This document shows positions 23,404-28,712 of a DNA stretch of 64,000 nucleotides, piece by piece. Both the position numbers and the translations under genes were made by a program. Source of the stretch: Lachnospiraceae bacterium (lineage in GTDB: Bacteria; Bacillota; Clostridia; Lachnospirales; Lachnospiraceae). The notes below the pieces were generated by a model that worked only from the letters and a program-made list of their open reading frames with translations, ran no database searches and was not told the origin of the DNA. The DNA lies in NCBI GenBank assembly GCA_031272985.1, contig JAISSU010000008.1, positions 38,800 to 102,799 on the forward strand. Reading direction: 5' to 3'. The stretch's first letter is position 1, and every line of letters starts with the position of its first letter.

Positions 23404-24525
23404 TTATGCCTGAGCAGGGCTGTCCCACAGGAGGAGTTTTGTCCCGATTCCTTCTTTAAGAGCGTTTTGGTAGATGTCATAGGTCCAGGCAACATCATAA
23501 ACAGCCATACCGCATGTAATGAAAAGAACTCTCTCATCATGGGAGGTGCGCCCCGGGCGTACGCCTCTGATGATGTCGCCGATAGCTGTGAAATCATTAA
23601 GCGCAGGAAGTGCTCCTTTATCGATCAGGCTGAAAATCGGACCTCCGATAACTCCGGCATAATAAGCTTCTTTATTGCCTGAGGCAATGGCATCCTCAAC
23701 ATAAGCTTCCTGTAATTTAACATGGTCAAGAATAATCTTTGAATTCGTAAATACTCCGTCCTCGCCCTTAGCAGGTCCTGTGAGCATCAGCAAAGACCCT
23801 TTTTTAAGCCAGCTTTCCTCCAAATAAAGGGGTTTAAGTCTTGAAGCTGCAACAGATACTACATCGCCTTCAGAAACTGCTTTTGCTAAATCAGAAGATG
23901 CGACAGCGTCCACGCCGAGGTCATTTTTAACCCAATCGGCGAAAGCTTCTGCCTTTTCGATAAAGAGGTCAAAGCATACGAACTTCTTTACATTTTTCAT
24001 TTGAGTACGAATCGCGGCGATACATGCTTTATTTATAGGTCCGCACCCGATTACGGAACAAATTTCGGCGTCGGGATTTGCGAGGTGGCGGGTAGCAACG
24101 CCGGGTACCGCCCCTGTTCTCGCGGCACTTATAAGATTCGCAGACATCATGCAAAGCGGTTCACCCGTGTCCTTATCATTTAAGAGCATCACCAATACTG
24201 AGCGCGGCAGGCCTTTAGTGGCATTAGCGGCATTTGAGCCGTACCATTTACAGCCGCAAACGTCGAAGCGTCCTCCCACATAAGCCGGCATAGCTGCGAA
24301 ACGTCTGTCAGGGCCATCGAGCGGCATATTCGGAAACGGTGATTCCTTTGGGAATACCATCGTAATGCCATGATTATTATGATTGGGTCCCCCCATCAAA
24401 TAGTCGCCCTCGCTTAATAGTCTGAATGATTCCTCGATAGTATCGACGCAGGCAGCCGCGTCCAAAACGCCGGCTTTAATAGTTTCCGGCTCCGAAAGAT
24501 AAATAAAATCCGTATGTTTTCCCAT
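23404..24525 (-). CDS. ornithine cyclodeaminase/mu-crystallin family protein (often annotated tyramine oxidase subunit B)
   Basis: 373 aa. Rossmann region SAARTGAVPGVATRHLANPDAEICSVIGCGPINKACI and an overall OCD-family pattern. Confidence 0.5.
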   Translation of the reverse strand: MGKHTDFIYLSEPETIKAGVLDAAACVDTIEESFRLLSEGDYLMGGPNHNNHGITMVFPKESPFPNMPLDGPDRRFAAMPAYVGGRFDVCGCKWYGSNAANATKGLPRSVLVMLLNDKDTGEPLCMMSANLISAARTGAVPGVATRHLANPDAEICSVIGCGPINKACIAAIRTQMKNVKKFVCFDLFIEKAEAFADWVKNDLGVDAVASSDLAKAVSEGDVVSVAASRLKPLYLEESWLKKGSLLMLTGPAKGEDGVFTNSKIILDHVKLQEAYVEDAIASGNKEAYYAGVIGGPIFSLIDKGALPALNDFTAIGDIIRGVRPGRTSHDERVLFITCGMAVYDVAWTYDIYQNALKEGIGTKLLLWDSPAQA

Positions 24526-24551: not shown

Positions 24552-26051
24552 TTACTGTTTTTTTGGAACATACATTACATTAAAGTCACATAGATTTGTG
24601 CCTGTATTCCCTGTAAATACTGTGTCCCCGATTGCTTTTAGCACCTCATAGGAGGCGTGCCCGCGAAGATTTGCTCTGATGTCGAGCCCTTCTGAAACCG
24701 CTGCGGCATAGCTCGTCGAGTCAGTGATACCTCCCGCCACGTCCGTCGTCCCGTCTGTGCCTTCGGAGTCTATTGAAAGAAGGCAGGCACCGGGTGCTTT
24801 CGAGTCTGCGGCGCACATTGCAAAGCCCAAGGTCTCTTCCTGAGAGGGTCCGCCATGTCCGGTAATCACATCGCCGGGGGCGATTTTAGTGCTCGCTTCT
24901 CCTGAGGCAATAATCACGCATGGCGCGGGGAAAGGATTTGCGTAAGTTTGAATTTCCCTCGCTACGGATGCCAGCACGGCACCTACGTCCCCTCCTTCGC
25001 CTTGTAAAAACGAAGTCAATATGTGAGCCTTAATACCCATGCCTTCGGCGATTTCTTTTGCATAACGGCAGGCATCAGGCAATGTATTAATCAGATAATA
25101 AGTATTTTGCGGAAAGGCCTTAGGAGTCTCGGCCTCGGGGCCCGCATTCATCAGGTAATCGACAACGCGTCTCGGTAAAATATCTTCTACTCCATACTCA
25201 CGGATGACGCGTCTGGCATCGTCCAAAGTAGTCTGATCCGGTCCGAAGGGTGTGGCACGATATTTCTCATAAGGAATGCTGATGTCTCCGGTCGCAGGAG
25301 AAGCCACGGCATCGCTGATTCCGAAATGTATCAACTGTGCTCCCCTTTCGGCAATTCTTTTTGCGAGCATCCCTCCGTTAAACTTTGAAATATGGCGGCG
25401 TATTGCATTTATCTCGAAAATATCCGCACCTGATTTAAGCATAATATCTGTAACGGCGATTTCATCTTCTAAAGTAATTCCATCGACAGGGCAGCTCATA
25501 AGAGCAGAACTCCCGCCGCTGACAACACCTATGAACAGGTCATCGGGACCTGAAGAATCCACCAGTTCAAGGATTTTTTCACATGCCCTAAGACCGTCCT
25601 CATTCGGGAGAGGGTGTCCGCCGACATACTGCTTCGTGCGATTATAAACATCAGTCGCTTCCGCAATCTTAACAATGACGATTCCGCGGGTCAGATGATC
25701 ACCTAAAACCTCATCCACCGCCCGTGCCATGTGATTTGCGGCCTTACCGGAGCCTATTAAATAAACATGTCTTTTTTTGCTTAAGTCCCAGCTATTATTT
25801 CCGATTTTTAAGATATCTCCATCGAGTTTAAGAATGCTCTTAATCCGCTCGTACGCGTCGAGACGTTGCAATGTCGCTTCGGTAATATCCAGAACAATTT
25901 TTCTGGAATTCACGTCGCCATGCGATAAAATCTCGTCCCTGTTTCGGATTTTCAGGGATTTAATTAATGTACTGTCACTGCGTGATTTGTCATTCAATGT
26001 ACAATCCTCCGAATTATTAAATATTGATACAAGTGATAAATATTTTTTCAC
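24552..26051 (-). CDS. MOFRL-family glycerate 2-kinase (hydroxypyruvate reductase-associated type)
   Basis: 499 aa. N-terminal YLIGSGKAANHMARAV and the MOFRL C-terminal half. The true start is possibly internal. Confidence 0.5.
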   Translation of the reverse strand: MKKYLSLVSIFNNSEDCTLNDKSRSDSTLIKSLKIRNRDEILSHGDVNSRKIVLDITEATLQRLDAYERIKSILKLDGDILKIGNNSWDLSKKRHVYLIGSGKAANHMARAVDEVLGDHLTRGIVIVKIAEATDVYNRTKQYVGGHPLPNEDGLRACEKILELVDSSGPDDLFIGVVSGGSSALMSCPVDGITLEDEIAVTDIMLKSGADIFEINAIRRHISKFNGGMLAKRIAERGAQLIHFGISDAVASPATGDISIPYEKYRATPFGPDQTTLDDARRVIREYGVEDILPRRVVDYLMNAGPEAETPKAFPQNTYYLINTLPDACRYAKEIAEGMGIKAHILTSFLQGEGGDVGAVLASVAREIQTYANPFPAPCVIIASGEASTKIAPGDVITGHGGPSQEETLGFAMCAADSKAPGACLLSIDSEGTDGTTDVAGGITDSTSYAAAVSEGLDIRANLRGHASYEVLKAIGDTVFTGNTGTNLCDFNVMYVPKKQ

Positions 26052-26159: not shown

Positions 26160-26187
26160 TTGACAAACCAATTATGGCCGTTATAAT
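26160..26187 (+). promoter_or_regulatory. sigma-A-type promoter upstream of the 2-hydroxyacid dehydrogenase gene
   Basis: TTGACA at 26160-26165, a 16-nt spacer, then TATAAT at 26182-26187. Followed immediately by the CCGTTA-GGT-TAACGG hairpin plus a T-run (26196-26221) and a 14-codon upstream ORF. Confidence 0.55.
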
Positions 26188-26302
26188 CGAAAATAGCCGT
26201 TAGGTTAACGGTTTTATCATTGATAAATTTGATATTAGATTGAGGTTTATTATTATGATTGTTTATGCGCTCATTATAGGAGCGGGATTATGGAGGTAAT
26301 TT

Positions 26303-27256
26303 ATGAATAAGGTACTTATCACTTTACCGTATTTTGATATTAAAAATCCGGATGCTTACAATTATTTAACAGAACATGATTGCGAGGTCAGTGTCATCCA
26401 AAAAGAAACGCCATACACCCCTGAAGAATTCATGGAAATTATCGGAGATTTTGACGCTGCAATAACTGATTTGGAAATCTGGGACGAGGCCGCATTTAAG
26501 GCGGCTAAAAATCTTAAAATAGTTGCGCGATTCGGTGTTGGGATGGACAATTTTGATTTGGAAGCTGCGAAAAAATTTAGGATTACGGTGACTAATTGCC
26601 CCGGCGCCAATGCGACCGCAGTGGGAGAGCATACTTTAGCACTCCTTCTTTCATTGATGCGCGAGATTCCCAAATATGACAGACAGGTAAGAGATGCCGA
26701 TTGGTCTCGCCCCGATTTTCAGGAATTAAAAGGAAAAACAGTCTCAATTCTTGGTTTCGGAGCGGTAGGCCGCCAGAGCGCAAAGAAGCTGTCGGGATTT
26801 GAAGTAAATATGCTGGCTTATGACAAATATCCTAATGAAGACGCAGCGAAGGAACTGGGAGTAAAGCTCTGTTCTCTTGATGAAGCGCTTCAAAATGGGG
26901 ATATTTTGCTTCTGCATCTGCCGAGTCTCCCCGAGACTTATCATTTGATTAATTCTGAAACAATATCAAAAATGAAAGATGGAGTAATAATTGTTAATGT
27001 CGCCAGAGGAGTAATCGTTGATGAAAAAGCTGCAGCCGAAGGACTTAGGAGTGGGAAAATAGCGGGCTTTGCGTCTGATGTATTTGAAAAAGAGCCCGTA
27101 GAAGCAGACAATCCGCTCTTTGCTTTCCCGAATTTTATCGGCTCTGCCCATGTCGCTACCGATACGGCGCAGAATTTTATCAGATTGGGCGACGTAGTCG
27201 TAAAAGATGTTGTGGAGGCACTGGAGGGCAAAAAACCCAAGAACGCACTGGTTTAG
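26303..27256 (+). CDS. D-isomer-specific 2-hydroxyacid dehydrogenase (hydroxypyruvate/glycerate or phosphoglycerate dehydrogenase-like)
   Basis: 317 aa. NAD-binding GFGAVGRQSAKKL and a catalytic region (ARGVIVDEKAAAEGLRSGKIAGFASDVFEKEP...SAHVA). Confidence 0.8.
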   Translation: MNKVLITLPYFDIKNPDAYNYLTEHDCEVSVIQKETPYTPEEFMEIIGDFDAAITDLEIWDEAAFKAAKNLKIVARFGVGMDNFDLEAAKKFRITVTNCPGANATAVGEHTLALLLSLMREIPKYDRQVRDADWSRPDFQELKGKTVSILGFGAVGRQSAKKLSGFEVNMLAYDKYPNEDAAKELGVKLCSLDEALQNGDILLLHLPSLPETYHLINSETISKMKDGVIIVNVARGVIVDEKAAAEGLRSGKIAGFASDVFEKEPVEADNPLFAFPNFIGSAHVATDTAQNFIRLGDVVVKDVVEALEGKKPKNALV

Positions 27257-27434: not shown

Positions 27435-28712
27435 ATGTCAAAAATTAAAGCAATACGTGCAAGGCAATTATTGGATTGTAAATGCAGACCCATGGTGGAG
27501 GCCGAGGTGGAGACCGAAAGCGGCGCAATAGGCACAGGCAGCGCCCCTACGGGGAGTTCCGTGGGCTCTCATGAGTCTTTTGTTCTGCGGGACAATGATA
27601 AAGGAGAGTATGGCGGATTAAGCGTTCATTTGGCTGTTAATAATGTTATTGAAAAGATTGCGCCTGCGCTAATAGGCATGGACGTAGAGGATCTGCGAAA
27701 AATAGATGAGAGAATGATAGAGCTTGATGGGAGTTTCGATAAGCACAATCTCGGAGGGAATGCGATTTACAGCGTTTCTATTGCCGCGCTTCGTGCGGCG
27801 GCAGCTGATAATAATATGCCCGTTTACCGTTATATTCTGGGCAGGGATCCACATACGGTTCCGGTACCGACGTTTAATGTAATTAACGGAGGAAAATATG
27901 GTGATCTCATTCAGCCTTTCAATGAATTTCTGATTGTCCCATGGAAGGCAAATAGTATTTATGAGGCTGTTGAAATGGGAGTTAAGGTATTTTCTGCGCT
28001 GGAGCAGGAGATACCTAAAGTTACTGGGATTTCACCGATGGTAGGGCGTTCTTATGGCTGGGTGGCACCTTCTGAAAATCCCGATGACATTTTGAATTTG
28101 CTTTCGCATACGGTAAAGGTCTGTGGATACGAGGGCAGGATAGCTTTCGCAATGGACTGCGCTTCGGGAGAGATGTACAATAAAGAGGATCATACCTATT
28201 ATTTGTTTGGTAATAGGGTATCGAGTGCGGAATTGGTGGATTTTACGGCGGGGCTTTCCCGGAAATATCCTTTATTTTTCATAGAGGATTTGCTTGATGA
28301 AGATGATTTTGACGGCTTTAAACTGGCGCATGAGAAGATCACAAATAGCCTTATTATAGGAGATGATTTAATCGCTTCCGACAGGGCACGACTTGAAAAG
28401 GCTCACGCGATGAACGCTGTGGATGGATTCATACTGAAACCGAACCAGATTGGAACCATCACCGAGGCAAAGGATACGCACGATTATGCCGTAAATGAAG
28501 GATTGCTTTCAATTACTTCAGGGCGCTCGGGCGGGGTTGTTGATGATATAGTTATGGATTTGGCCGTCGGATATGAGATTGGATTTATAAAGAATGGGGC
28601 CCCGCGTTCGGGGGAGAGAATATCAAAGCTTAATTTCCTCATGAGAGCCTGTGATTTGGCGCAAGGTTGCACGCTTGCCGATTTAAGTAAAGTAGCACGC
28701 ACAAACTCTTAA
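27435..28712 (+). CDS. enolase-superfamily paralog with a substituted catalytic acid/base pair
   Basis: 425 aa. Clear enolase fold: N-terminal ...AEVETESGA.G..APTG.S.G..E, the EF motif (NEFLIVP), metal ligands (AMDCASGE, FFIEDLLDED, IGDDL) and both Lys (LKPNQIGT, IKNGAP). The general-acid motif VGDEGGFAP is replaced by VGRSYGWVAP, and SHRSGETED is replaced by SGRSGGVVD. Confidence 0.7.
   Translation: MSKIKAIRARQLLDCKCRPMVEAEVETESGAIGTGSAPTGSSVGSHESFVLRDNDKGEYGGLSVHLAVNNVIEKIAPALIGMDVEDLRKIDERMIELDGSFDKHNLGGNAIYSVSIAALRAAAADNNMPVYRYILGRDPHTVPVPTFNVINGGKYGDLIQPFNEFLIVPWKANSIYEAVEMGVKVFSALEQEIPKVTGISPMVGRSYGWVAPSENPDDILNLLSHTVKVCGYEGRIAFAMDCASGEMYNKEDHTYYLFGNRVSSAELVDFTAGLSRKYPLFFIEDLLDEDDFDGFKLAHEKITNSLIIGDDLIASDRARLEKAHAMNAVDGFILKPNQIGTITEAKDTHDYAVNEGLLSITSGRSGGVVDDIVMDLAVGYEIGFIKNGAPRSGERISKLNFLMRACDLAQGCTLADLSKVARTNS

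What the first reader, a model, noticed from the sequence alone, without database searches (positions are those of the whole stretch)
27435..28712. Enolase-fold protein that keeps the metal ligands and both lysines but has lost the Glu and His general acid/base residues
The protein aligns along its whole length to enolase. It retains the Mg ligands (D in AMDCASGE, E in IEDLLDED, D in IGDDL), the E of the EF motif, and the two catalytic lysines (LKPNQIG, IKNGAP).

The invariant VGDEGGFAP (Glu211-equivalent) reads VGRSYGWVAP, and the invariant SHRSGETED (His373-equivalent) reads SGRSGGVVD. Canonical enolase chemistry (2-PG to PEP) needs both residues. This is therefore either a non-catalytic moonlighting enolase or an enzyme with altered chemistry.

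The gene is divergently co-promoted with a glycerate kinase, and a 2-hydroxyacid dehydrogenase is adjacent. That neighbourhood would otherwise be expected to feed a true enolase.
Basis: partly seen in the sequence, partly recalled or inferred. Interest (0 to 1): 0.7.

Follow-up and report, generated by a model that had tools for sequence, protein, structure and literature searches.

The report
Kinase-coupled enolase look-alike with new chemistry
This gene encodes a well-folded enolase-type enzyme that has swapped the residues needed to make phosphoenolpyruvate from 2-phosphoglycerate; it belongs to an unstudied family, mislabelled "enolase" in databases, that sits next to or is fused with a glycerate-kinase-like kinase in four bacterial phyla.

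Summary
ORF 27435-28712 (425 aa) is a full-length enolase-fold protein. It keeps the three Mg ligands, Ser39, Glu168, Lys345, Lys396 and Arg374/Ser375 (yeast numbering). It lacks Glu211 (now Ser206-Tyr207), His373 (Gly363) and also His159 (Tyr155).

This is not decay. The replacements are near-invariant in more than 200 homologues from Bacillota, Synergistota, Pseudomonadota and Actinomycetota. In 68 of 68 informative metagenomic loci a MOFRL/DUF4147 (glycerate-2-kinase-like) gene lies directly upstream on the same strand. In 17 of the 80 loci recovered the two are one fused ORF. An OCD/mu-crystallin (SbnB/AlaDH-like) gene accompanies them in 43 of 50 loci. Recurrent partners are amino-acid or TRAP transporters, three unrelated kinds of glutamate dehydrogenase, RidA, nickel-pincer 2-hydroxyacid racemases, YgeY-like M20 hydrolases, pyruvate kinase and pyruvate carboxylase.

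Best reading: an active lyase that takes the kinase's phospho-ester, enolises it like enolase, and expels a beta-substituent that needs no acid catalyst. That substituent is most likely nitrogen-based, which would give an enol phosphate. The substrate is not identified. A moonlighting pseudo-enolase is very unlikely. I found no paper on the family. PGAP's enolase model (TIGR01060) scores it above cut-off, so it is systematically misannotated.

The parts
27435..28712 (+). Enolase-fold gene (425 aa), a member of the kinase-coupled 'SYG[WY]/SGRSGGV' family
   Evidence: The identical protein is MDR1800572.1, 'MAG: enolase [Lachnospiraceae bacterium]'.
28047..28061 (+). Codons R205-S206-Y207-G208-W209, replacing D210-E211-G212-G213 (general-acid loop), with a one-residue insertion
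   Evidence: S-Y-G-[WY] is fixed in the family. R205 itself is not conserved (G, A or S elsewhere).
28521..28547 (+). Codons G363-R364-S365-G366-G367-V368-V369-D370-D371, replacing H373-R-S-G-E-T-E-D-T. His373 and Glu377 are lost; Arg374 and Ser375 are kept.
   Evidence: SGRSGGV[VI] occurs in 111 of 116 proteobacterial-type members, and G373 in 120/120 of the first set.
27897..27926 (+). Y155 (in place of His159), then N163 (in place of Gln167) and E164 (Glu168, kept)
   Evidence: NGG[KR]Y ... NEF.
28155..28157 (+). D241, Mg ligand (yeast D246), retained
   Evidence: invariant.
28284..28286 (+). E284, Mg ligand (yeast E295), retained
28362..28364 (+). D310, Mg ligand (yeast D320), retained
28437..28439 (+). 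K335, general base (yeast K345), in LKPNQIG, retained
28590..28592 (+). K386 (yeast K396), in IKNGAP, retained
27477..27488 (+). C15-K16-C17-R18, the family signature LDCKCRP in place of the canonical DSRGNP
   Evidence: Function unknown.
26303..27256 (+). D-2-hydroxyacid dehydrogenase (PGDH/glyoxylate-reductase-like), first gene of the operon that holds the enolase-like gene
   Evidence: Such a dehydrogenase is an occasional partner, not a constant one.
24552..26051 (-). DUF4147+MOFRL kinase (glycerate-2-kinase-like). The true start is probably about 30 codons downstream of the GTG at 26051.
   Evidence: Homologues align from residue 30-34. This is the constant partner of the family.
23404..24525 (-). 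OCD/mu-crystallin family NAD(P) enzyme (NCBIfam PRK06199, 'tyramine oxidase subunit B'; nearest structures SbnB and archaeal AlaDH)
26160..26213 (+). Perfect sigma-70-type promoter match (TTGACA-16-TATAAT, 26160-26187), followed by a 19-nt palindrome (26195-26213) in the divergent intergenic region
   Evidence: These are consensus matches only; function was not tested.

Best explanation
The gene encodes an active, neofunctionalised enolase-family lyase. It works on the phospho-ester made by the MOFRL/DUF4147 kinase that always accompanies it.

**What the sequence shows directly.**
- It keeps everything enolase uses for its first half-reaction: two Mg2+ sites (D241, E284, D310; the Ser42 loop), the base Lys335, the carboxylate and enolate partners Lys386 and Glu164, and the phosphate clamp Arg364/Ser365.
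- It has exchanged the residues that protonate and position the leaving 3-OH (Glu211, His373, plus His159, Asp210, Glu377). The replacement set is fixed, less acidic and roomier: Ser-Tyr-Gly-Trp/Tyr, and Gly-Arg-Ser-Gly-Gly-Val.

**Inferred mechanism.**
1. The kinase phosphorylates the 2-OH of a small polar 2-hydroxy acid.
2. Lys335 removes the C2 proton, and the metals stabilise the enolate.
3. A C3 substituent that needs no general acid leaves. It is most plausibly an ammonium or substituted amine, that is a 2-phospho-isoserine-type (N3-substituted 2,3-diaminopropionate-derived) substrate.
4. The product is an enol phosphate: PEP if the skeleton is C3.

**Inferred roles of the partners.** The OCD-family enzyme (SbnB/AlaDH-like) supplies the carbon skeleton from the corresponding alpha-amino acid by way of the imino/2-oxo acid. 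RidA, 2-hydroxyacid or SDR reductases and nickel-pincer racemases help where present. Pyruvate kinase or carboxylase and glutamate dehydrogenase dispose of PEP/pyruvate and ammonia.

The identity of the substrate is not established. The confidence given here is for the general statement, that is an active enzyme with changed chemistry that is coupled to the kinase.
For: **(1) Selection on a new active site.**
- Replacements are invariant and enolisation residues are retained in 120 close homologues and in 116 further homologues dominated by Proteobacteria and Actinobacteria.
- The AlphaFold2 model is confident and enolase-like.

**(2) Kinase coupling.**
- The MOFRL gene lies immediately upstream on the same strand in 68/68 loci with enough flank.
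- There are 17 single-ORF MOFRL-enolase fusions, and P0121, P0346, P0371 and P0374 carry both domain sets.
- All characterised MOFRL kinases make 2-phosphoglycerate, that is they phosphorylate the 2-OH (PMC2063504).

**(3) OCD partner.** It is present in 43/50 loci and in all nine cultured-organism or long-contig contexts inspected. Its nearest structures are SbnB and AlaDH.

**(4) Nitrogen-centred partners.**
- GDH of three different types.
- RidA and a 4-OT tautomerase.
- A YgeY-like plus an ArgE/DapE-like M20 pair in 17 loci. YgeY is the albizziin-to-diaminopropionate hydrolase (10.1101/2025.05.19.654654).
- Class-III aminotransferase and CN-hydrolase.
- Polar-amino-acid ABC transporters or an AA_permease.
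- Two loci embedded in purine/ureide-type genes.

**(5) Downstream C3 handling.** Pyruvate kinase is adjacent in Wukongibacter and Acidovorax, and pyruvate carboxylase on the alpha-proteobacterial plasmids.

**(6) Not a housekeeping gene.** In Brucella anthropi and Agrobacterium cucumeris the gene lies on conjugative plasmids.
Against: - No experiment and no substrate. I could not inspect the model's coordinates, so statements about the pocket rest on alignment to enolase and on my recollection of enolase structures.
- Tyr207 could act as a relocated general acid, in which case an OH leaving group (true dehydration) is not excluded.
- Hydroxypyruvate-isomerase-like (AP_endonuc_2) and reductase genes in some clusters fit a serine -> hydroxypyruvate -> glycerate -> 2-PG route equally well.
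- A sister clade with the same SYG[WY] motif is fused to a phosphoglycerate-mutase-like domain. That hints at 3-hydroxy-2-phospho substrates.
- The OCD's constant presence is explained even better by the rival in which it reduces the lyase's imine product.
- A reductase for the 2-oxo acid is absent from many clusters.
Confidence: 0.55

Rival explanations
1. **Phosphate-eliminating lyase (reversed regiochemistry).** The kinase activates a beta-hydroxyl of an alpha-amino or alpha-imino acid. Candidates are a 3-hydroxy amino acid such as 3-hydroxyaspartate, or an N-substituted serine that PLP enzymes cannot handle. The enolase-like enzyme removes the alpha-proton and expels phosphate. The resulting enamine/imine is then reduced by the OCD-family imine reductase or hydrolysed by RidA.
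For: - It explains why a kinase is obligatory and why an OCD-family enzyme is the third constant partner. Relatives of that enzyme include iminosuccinate reductase BhcD and Pyr2C reductase.
- RidA and the tautomerase fit enamine/imine handling.
- Loss of Asp210, Glu211, Glu377 and Glu379, together with the extra room at the C3 side, suits an anionic phosphate leaving group.
- LarA-type partners score best against malate racemases, and DctP-type TRAP transporters are frequent partners.
Against: - It requires the MOFRL kinase to have changed regiochemistry. All characterised members phosphorylate the 2-OH.
- The canonical phosphate clamp Arg364/Ser365 and the second-metal loop are invariant. That is odd if an ammonium sits there.
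- Pyruvate kinase next to the cluster in two genomes fits an enol-phosphate product better.
Confidence: 0.2
2. **Divergent but genuine 2-phosphoglycerate enolase.** It is dedicated to a serine/hydroxypyruvate/glycerate -> PEP funnel, with Tyr207 or another residue taking over the general-acid role.
For: - TIGR01060 scores 359.5, above the cut-off of 300.
- The kinase's only characterised relatives are glycerate 2-kinases.
- 2-hydroxyacid dehydrogenase, AP_endonuc_2, pyruvate kinase and pyruvate carboxylase are partners.
- A Lachnospiraceae LarA homologue is known to racemise glycerate (PMC11770544).
Against: - In the canonical enolases sampled here (60-67 cluster representatives), E211 and H373 are fixed.
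- Here E211, H373 and H159 are all replaced, by a set that is itself invariant across four phyla.
- From my own knowledge, mutating Glu211 in yeast enolase lowers activity about 10^5-fold.
- A simple duplicate of the canonical enolase would serve such a funnel.
- The cluster LarA has a different pocket motif (QMDHA) from the glycerate-preferring LarAH43.
- The partners are nitrogen-centred.
Confidence: 0.15
3. **Racemase/epimerase or other 1,1- or 1,3-proton-transfer enzyme acting on the kinase product.** Lys335 sits on one face and Tyr207 on the other, and nothing is eliminated.
For: - The enolisation machinery is retained and a new conserved Tyr lies opposite the base.
- The enolase superfamily repeatedly evolves racemases (my own knowledge).
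Against: - Many clusters already carry a nickel-pincer racemase or isomerase.
- It gives no explanation for why phosphorylation would be needed.
- It names no downstream enzyme for a phospho-epimer.
Confidence: 0.05
4. **Non-catalytic (moonlighting or structural) enolase relic.**
For: Two or three canonical catalytic residues are missing.
Against: - Metal ligands, both lysines, Glu168 and Arg374 are invariant. The substitutions are fixed rather than drifting.
- Gene fusion and operon coupling with a kinase occur in four phyla.
Confidence: 0.02

Closest known systems
Enolase (phosphopyruvate hydratase, EC 4.2.1.11; TIGR01060, Pfam Enolase_N/Enolase_C)
   Same: - Same two-domain fold: TM 0.92-0.95, with 35-39% identity.
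- Same Mg ligands, Ser39 loop, Glu168, Lys345, Lys396 and Arg374/Ser375.
   Different: - Lacks Glu211, His373, His159, Gln167, Glu377 and Arg14, which are replaced by a family-specific invariant set.
- Always coupled or fused to a MOFRL kinase and linked to an OCD-family gene.
- Plasmid-borne in some hosts.
Other enolase-superfamily lyases that expel nitrogen or act on amino acids (methylaspartate ammonia-lyase, cis-3-hydroxy-L-proline dehydratase)
   Same: Conceptually the same logic: metal-stabilised enolate of a carboxylate, followed by beta-elimination. In the 3-hydroxyproline case an OCD-family imine reductase acts downstream. This comparison rests on my own knowledge.
   Different: - Those enzymes belong to the MAL or MR/MLE subgroups.
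- Here MR_MLE_C scores only 20.3 bits against a cut-off of 29.4, and the MAL-type and related NCBIfam models are far below threshold.
- This protein is a member of the enolase subgroup proper.
Class II (MOFRL) glycerate 2-kinase + enolase + pyruvate kinase modules (serine cycle, tartrate utilisation TtuD/TtuE)
   Same: A MOFRL kinase followed by an enolase-fold enzyme, with pyruvate kinase sometimes adjacent (PMC2063504).
   Different: - The kinase scores 180 bits against cut-offs of 550-670 for glycerate 2-kinase equivalogs.
- The enolase partner is non-canonical.
- OCD, GDH, RidA and M20 partners are foreign to those pathways.
Lower part of the reductive urate pathway (YgeY albizziin hydrolase, YgeX diaminopropionate ammonia-lyase)
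   Same: - A YgeY-like M20 hydrolase is a frequent partner (291 bits against a cut-off of 321).
- Two loci sit among XDH-, SsnA-, UacX-, carbamoyltransferase- and carbamate-kinase-like genes.
- The end product there is also a C3 keto acid.
   Different: - No YgeX is seen in the clusters.
- The link appears in only a minority of loci.
- Neither of the two primary papers on that pathway mentions an enolase-like gene or glycerate.

Membership tests
Enolase, EC 4.2.1.11 | Two-domain enolase fold (N-terminal capping domain plus C-terminal barrel) | tested here: met
   Pfam Enolase_N 146 bits and Enolase_C 205 bits. AF2 model TM 0.92-0.95 to solved enolases.
Enolase, EC 4.2.1.11 | Mg(I) ligands Asp246, Glu295, Asp320, and the Ser39 loop for Mg(II) | tested here: met
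   D241, E284, D310 and S42 are present. The three Mg ligands are invariant in the family; the Ser39 position is S in 115 and T in 5 of 120.
Enolase, EC 4.2.1.11 | General base Lys345 and Lys396/Glu168 | tested here: met
   K335, K386 and E164 are invariant.
Enolase, EC 4.2.1.11 | General acid Glu211 in the GDEGG loop | tested here: not met
   The loop reads GRSYGW. S or Y occupies the Glu211 column in 120/120 homologues.
Enolase, EC 4.2.1.11 | His373 (SHRSGE) and His159 | tested here: not met
   G363 in 120/120. At the His159 position, Y155 (Y in 108, N in 11, D in 1).
Enolase, EC 4.2.1.11 | Interconverts D-2-phosphoglycerate and PEP | not testable with these tools
   Needs an enzyme assay.
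Enolase, EC 4.2.1.11 | Passes the curated equivalog model (TIGR01060) | tested here: met
   359.5 bits against a cut-off of 300. This explains the database name 'phosphopyruvate hydratase', but the model does not check the catalytic residues.
Enolase superfamily (mechanistic) | Metal-assisted abstraction of the proton alpha to a carboxylate | tested here: inconclusive
   All residues required for this step are conserved. The activity itself was not tested.
MR/MLE/MAL subgroups of the enolase superfamily | Significant match to the subgroup models and their acid/base residues | tested here: not met
   MR_MLE_C scores 20.3 bits against a cut-off of 29.4. NCBIfam dehydratase models score 18-24 bits against cut-offs of 430-550.
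Pseudoenzyme / moonlighting enolase | Relaxed constraint on the active site, and no functional linkage to metabolic genes | tested here: not met
   The active-site columns are invariant across four phyla, and the gene shows obligatory synteny or fusion with a kinase gene.

The most novel reading that the evidence does not exclude
This is the first functionally distinct enzyme family inside the enolase subgroup proper. It would be a kinase-dependent, PLP-independent beta-elimination lyase. It converts a 3-amino (or N3-substituted) 2-phospho-2-hydroxy acid into PEP plus ammonia or an amine. It would be the core of a previously unrecognised OCD-kinase-lyase pathway by which gut Clostridia and Synergistota, rhizobia, Burkholderia and Rhodococcus turn diaminopropionate-type or beta-substituted alanine compounds into PEP. 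Such compounds include products of anaerobic purine breakdown and plant non-protein amino acids.
Probability: 0.2. Interest if true: 0.85.

Novelty: new variant of a known kind. Interest (0 to 1): 0.66.

Why it matters
- **Enzymology.** From my own knowledge, the enolase subgroup is treated as isofunctional in superfamily classifications. A broad, strongly conserved clade with a rebuilt acid side, obligatorily paired with a kinase, would show that the glycolytic enolase scaffold itself has been recruited to new chemistry.
- **Annotation.** Every member inspected is named 'enolase', 'phosphopyruvate hydratase' or 'enolase C-terminal domain-like protein' in public records. NCBI's curated equivalog model passes it. 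Metabolic reconstructions of gut and soil bacteria therefore count a second enolase that is probably not one.
- **Pathway discovery.** The conserved OCD-kinase-lyase triad marks an uncharacterised catabolic pathway. It is present in cultured, genetically tractable organisms (Agrobacterium, Rhizobium, Brucella anthropi, Rhodococcus jostii, Cloacibacillus evryensis), so the question can be tested directly.

Tried and rejected
- **Ten literature searches.** None found a paper on this family or on the triad.
- **Sulfolactate idea** (2-phospho-3-sulfolactate -> PEP + sulfite). Dropped because the 86 neighbourhoods surveyed show no recurrent sulfite exporter or reductase, and their recurrent partners are nitrogen-related.
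- **'New Arg205 binds an extra anion'.** Dropped because Arg205 is not conserved; it is G, A or S elsewhere.
- **TRAP binding-protein ligand inference.** The nearest structure, 4P47, is from Ochrobactrum anthropi. From my recollection it has no informative ligand. The O. anthropi plasmid cluster that carries the triad has no TRAP transporter, so 4P47 cannot be tied to it. The next relatives, again from my recollection, bind sugar acids, erythronate, pantoate and isethionate. Inconclusive.
- **LarA pocket comparison with the glycerate-preferring LarAH43.** The cluster LarA carries a different motif. Inconclusive.
- **Pfam survey of 123 further neighbour proteins.** No additional recurrent family. 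The purine/ureide link holds for only 2 loci.
- **Structure model.** It confirms the fold, but coordinates are not exposed, so no pocket analysis was possible.
- **Canonical eno in the same genome.** Could not be checked. The window has none, and whole genomes are not searchable with the remaining tools.
Full report
**What is there.** ORF 27435..28712 (+) encodes 425 aa. It matches Enolase_N (146 bits) and Enolase_C (205 bits) end to end. It aligns with residues 1-410 of solved enolases at E of about 1e-87. An AlphaFold2 model built on 44 family members (pLDDT 93.4, pTM 0.91) superposes on enolase structures with TM 0.92-0.95 and rmsd about 2 Å. The identical protein is in GenBank as MDR1800572.1, 'MAG: enolase [Lachnospiraceae bacterium]'.

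**The observation.**
- Retained: D246->D241, E295->E284, D320->D310, S39->S42, E168->E164, K345->K335, K396->K386, R374->R364, S375->S365.
- Lost: the loop VGDEGG reads VGRSYGW, with one extra residue, so Glu211 falls on S206 or Y207. SHRSGETED reads SGRSGGVVD, so His373 is Gly363 and Glu377 is Gly367.
- The window holds no second enolase.
- The stated gene order needs correcting. The kinase-like gene (24552..26051, -) and an OCD-family gene (23404..24525, -) are divergent from a two-gene operon made of the 2-hydroxyacid dehydrogenase (26303..27256) and the enolase-like gene. A perfect TTGACA-16-TATAAT match at 26160-26187 and a palindrome at 26195-26213 lie between them.

**Not decay but a new, fixed active site.**
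- The 120 nearest database proteins (423-430 aa, 57-68% identical) carry the same replacements: Gly at 373 in 120/120, S then Y/F across the 210-211 columns, Gly at 377 in 120/120, Val at 378 in 120/120, Asn at 167 in 120/120, and Tyr (108) or Asn (11) at 159. Every enolisation residue is invariant.
- I compared 60 family members with 60 canonical enolases. Further family-specific invariants emerged: LDCKCRP in place of DSRGNP, E47->V, T381->D, and A401/R402->R/S.
- Among cluster representatives of 1.8 billion proteins, the family forms a tight group. It sits beside several other non-canonical groups (42-44% identity) that also lack Glu211 and His373 but keep the metal ligands and lysines. Canonical enolases follow at 34-41% identity.

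**Distribution.**
- Named members come from Lachnospiraceae, Ruminococcus, Blautia, Wukongibacter and Cloacibacillus.
- At 54-57% identity with the same motifs (DCKCRP, NGG[KR]Y, NEF, SSYGYAAPS, LKPNQ, SGRSGGVV), members also come from Agrobacterium, Rhizobium, Sinorhizobium, Mesorhizobium, Shinella, Brucella anthropi, Burkholderia, Cupriavidus, Acidovorax, Pantoea and Rhodococcus.
- In B. anthropi ATCC 49188 and A. cucumeris the gene lies on conjugative plasmids, so it is not the housekeeping enolase there.
- NCBI's enolase equivalog model TIGR01060 scores the window protein at 359.5 bits against a cut-off of 300. This explains the uniform names 'phosphopyruvate hydratase' and 'enolase'.

**Genomic coupling.**
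- I recovered 80 metagenomic loci using family-specific peptide patterns and analysed them together with nine long contigs or annotated records.
- A DUF4147+MOFRL kinase gene ends 11-185 nt before the start of the tblastn alignment to the enolase-like gene, on the same strand, in 68 of 68 loci with at least 1.5 kb of upstream sequence.
- In 17 loci the two are one ORF of 894-989 aa. Independent database entries show the same architecture (P0121, P0346, P0371, P0374).
- The window is the only inspected case in which the kinase gene has moved to the opposite strand.
- An OCD/mu-crystallin gene (373 aa; NCBIfam PRK06199) is present in 43 of 50 loci with enough flank and in every cultured-organism or long-contig context inspected. 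Its nearest structures are SbnB (1e-36) and archaeal alanine dehydrogenase.
- Kinase, lyase and OCD diverge in step: 58-75%, 55-63% and 56-66% identity to the window proteins.

**Variable partners.**

| Partner | Where seen |
|---|---|
| TRAP transporter | 21 of 37 well-flanked loci |
| Polar-amino-acid ABC transporter, AA_permease or MFS | several genomes |
| LarA-type racemase | 17 loci |
| 'NPN isomerase group 22' | 10 loci |
| YgeY-like plus ArgE/DapE-like M20 pair | 17 loci |
| Glutamate dehydrogenase, three unrelated kinds | several phyla |
| RidA | Burkholderia, Pantoea |
| 4-OT tautomerase | alpha-proteobacteria |
| AP_endonuc_2 isomerase, SDR or 2-hydroxyacid reductases | several genomes |
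| Caprolactamase-like hydantoinase A/B | alpha-proteobacteria, Burkholderia, Pantoea |
| Pyruvate kinase | Wukongibacter, Acidovorax |
| Pyruvate carboxylase | alpha-proteobacterial plasmids |

Two loci sit among xanthine-dehydrogenase-, SsnA-, UacX-, carbamoyltransferase- and carbamate-kinase-like genes.

**Mechanistic reading.**
- Shown: the enolisation half of the enolase active site and the phosphate clamp are intact. The acid side is rebuilt, less acidic, and has smaller residues at 373 and 377. The protein is linked to a kinase whose characterised relatives all phosphorylate the 2-OH of a 2-hydroxy acid (PMC2063504).
- Inferred:
  1. The substrate is the kinase's 2-O-phospho-2-hydroxy acid.
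  2. Lys335 abstracts H-2.
  3. A C3 substituent that needs no Glu211/His373 acid catalysis leaves.
- The partner set is dominated by nitrogen metabolism. The OCD is SbnB-like, and SbnB's product is 2,3-diaminopropionate. The M20 partner is closest to YgeY, which makes diaminopropionate from albizziin in the reductive urate pathway (10.1101/2025.05.19.654654; PMC12990295).
- I therefore favour an ammonium or amine leaving group. That is a 2-phospho-isoserine-type substrate derived from diaminopropionate or beta-N-substituted alanines, giving PEP. This fits the adjacent pyruvate kinase or carboxylase and the GDH.
- The specific assignment is weak, about 0.2. The general statement (an active, kinase-coupled lyase with changed second half-reaction) is much stronger.

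**Rivals.**
- **(a) Reversed regiochemistry.** The phosphate is the leaving group from a beta-hydroxy amino acid, and the OCD reduces the imine product. This explains the constant OCD, RidA and tautomerase elegantly. It conflicts with the conserved phosphate clamp, the known kinase regiochemistry and the pyruvate kinase neighbours.
- **(b) A true but divergent 2-PG enolase in a serine/glycerate funnel.** This is compatible with the kinase family, the reductases, the isomerase and the PK. It is hard to reconcile with the fixed loss of three catalytic residues, and it does not explain why a non-canonical copy would be needed.
- **(c) An epimerase.**
- **(d) A pseudoenzyme.** This is effectively excluded by the conservation pattern and the fusions.

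**Comparison with what is known, and novelty.**
- The protein fails the catalytic-residue criteria for enolase membership (Glu211, His373, His159). It meets the fold and metal-site criteria.
- It does not belong to the MR/MLE/MAL subgroups.
- Ten full-text searches and targeted reading of the urate-pathway, LarA-superfamily and glycerate-kinase papers found no description of this family or of the triad.
- I rate it a new variant of a known kind: an enolase-subgroup enzyme with altered chemistry in an uncharacterised, widely distributed pathway.

Noticed in passing
L037:8700-10190 (-), also L034 and L035: Directly downstream of the LarA-like gene lies a third type of enolase paralogue (SERSGQTED, LDCRSYPT). 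It has in-frame stop codons, a frame change and a missing middle part, which suggests a decaying duplicate. Fragments of a second MOFRL gene flank it.
   Followed up: partly
window 26160-26213: A perfect 12/12 sigma-70 consensus site (TTGACA-16-TATAAT) is followed immediately by a 19-nt palindrome (AGCCGTTAGGTTAACGGTT) in the divergent intergenic region. It may be an operator, yet no regulator gene lies in the window's cluster. Homologous clusters carry RpiR, GntR or AraC genes.
   Followed up: no
window 27477-27485, 28122-28124, 28158-28160, 28668-28670 (C15, C17, C230, C242, C412): Five cysteines are invariant or nearly so in the family, including the CxC in LDCKCRP. Canonical enolases have Ser and Gly at the two N-terminal positions. 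The purpose is unknown (metal, redox or structural).
   Followed up: no
P0125, P0127, P0129 (database proteins, 612-617 aa): Sister non-canonical enolase-like proteins are fused to an N-terminal histidine-phosphatase / phosphoglycerate-mutase-like domain. P0125 shares the SYG[WY] motif. Several further non-canonical enolase clades (P0123, P0126, P0128, P0130, P0131, P0151) have other replacement sets.
   Followed up: partly
L058:1-15271 and L085:3252-8130: In two metagenomic loci the kinase-lyase pair is embedded among genes resembling those of the reductive purine pathway. These are a three-subunit xanthine-dehydrogenase-like enzyme, an SsnA-like amidohydrolase, a PreA/UacX-like reductase, an OTC-like carbamoyltransferase, carbamate kinase and a YgfK/AegA-like protein.
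   Followed up: partly
window 24552-26051 (-): The mechanical ORF for the MOFRL kinase starts at a GTG about 30 codons upstream of where all homologues begin (MxxKIRNRDxxLSHGD). The true start is probably internal, and no ATG/GTG/TTG is obvious at the conserved position.
   Followed up: no
L112 (Brucella anthropi pOANT01 115558-140829) and L113 (Agrobacterium cucumeris pO132a): The triad is part of a mobile catabolic island of more than 20 kb, with several encoded proteins identical between the two conjugative plasmids. The island also carries caprolactamase-like hydantoinase A/B, an IlvD/Edd-family dehydratase, a DMSP-lyase-like cupin, a tautomerase, GDH and pyruvate carboxylase. One host plasmid comes from cucumber hairy-root disease.
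   Followed up: partly
L027:6214-8290 (-) (Blautia): The OCD gene there is called as a 455-aa product that runs without a stop into the start of an amino-acid permease gene, which then continues in another frame. This is either a frameshifted permease or an assembly error.
   Followed up: no
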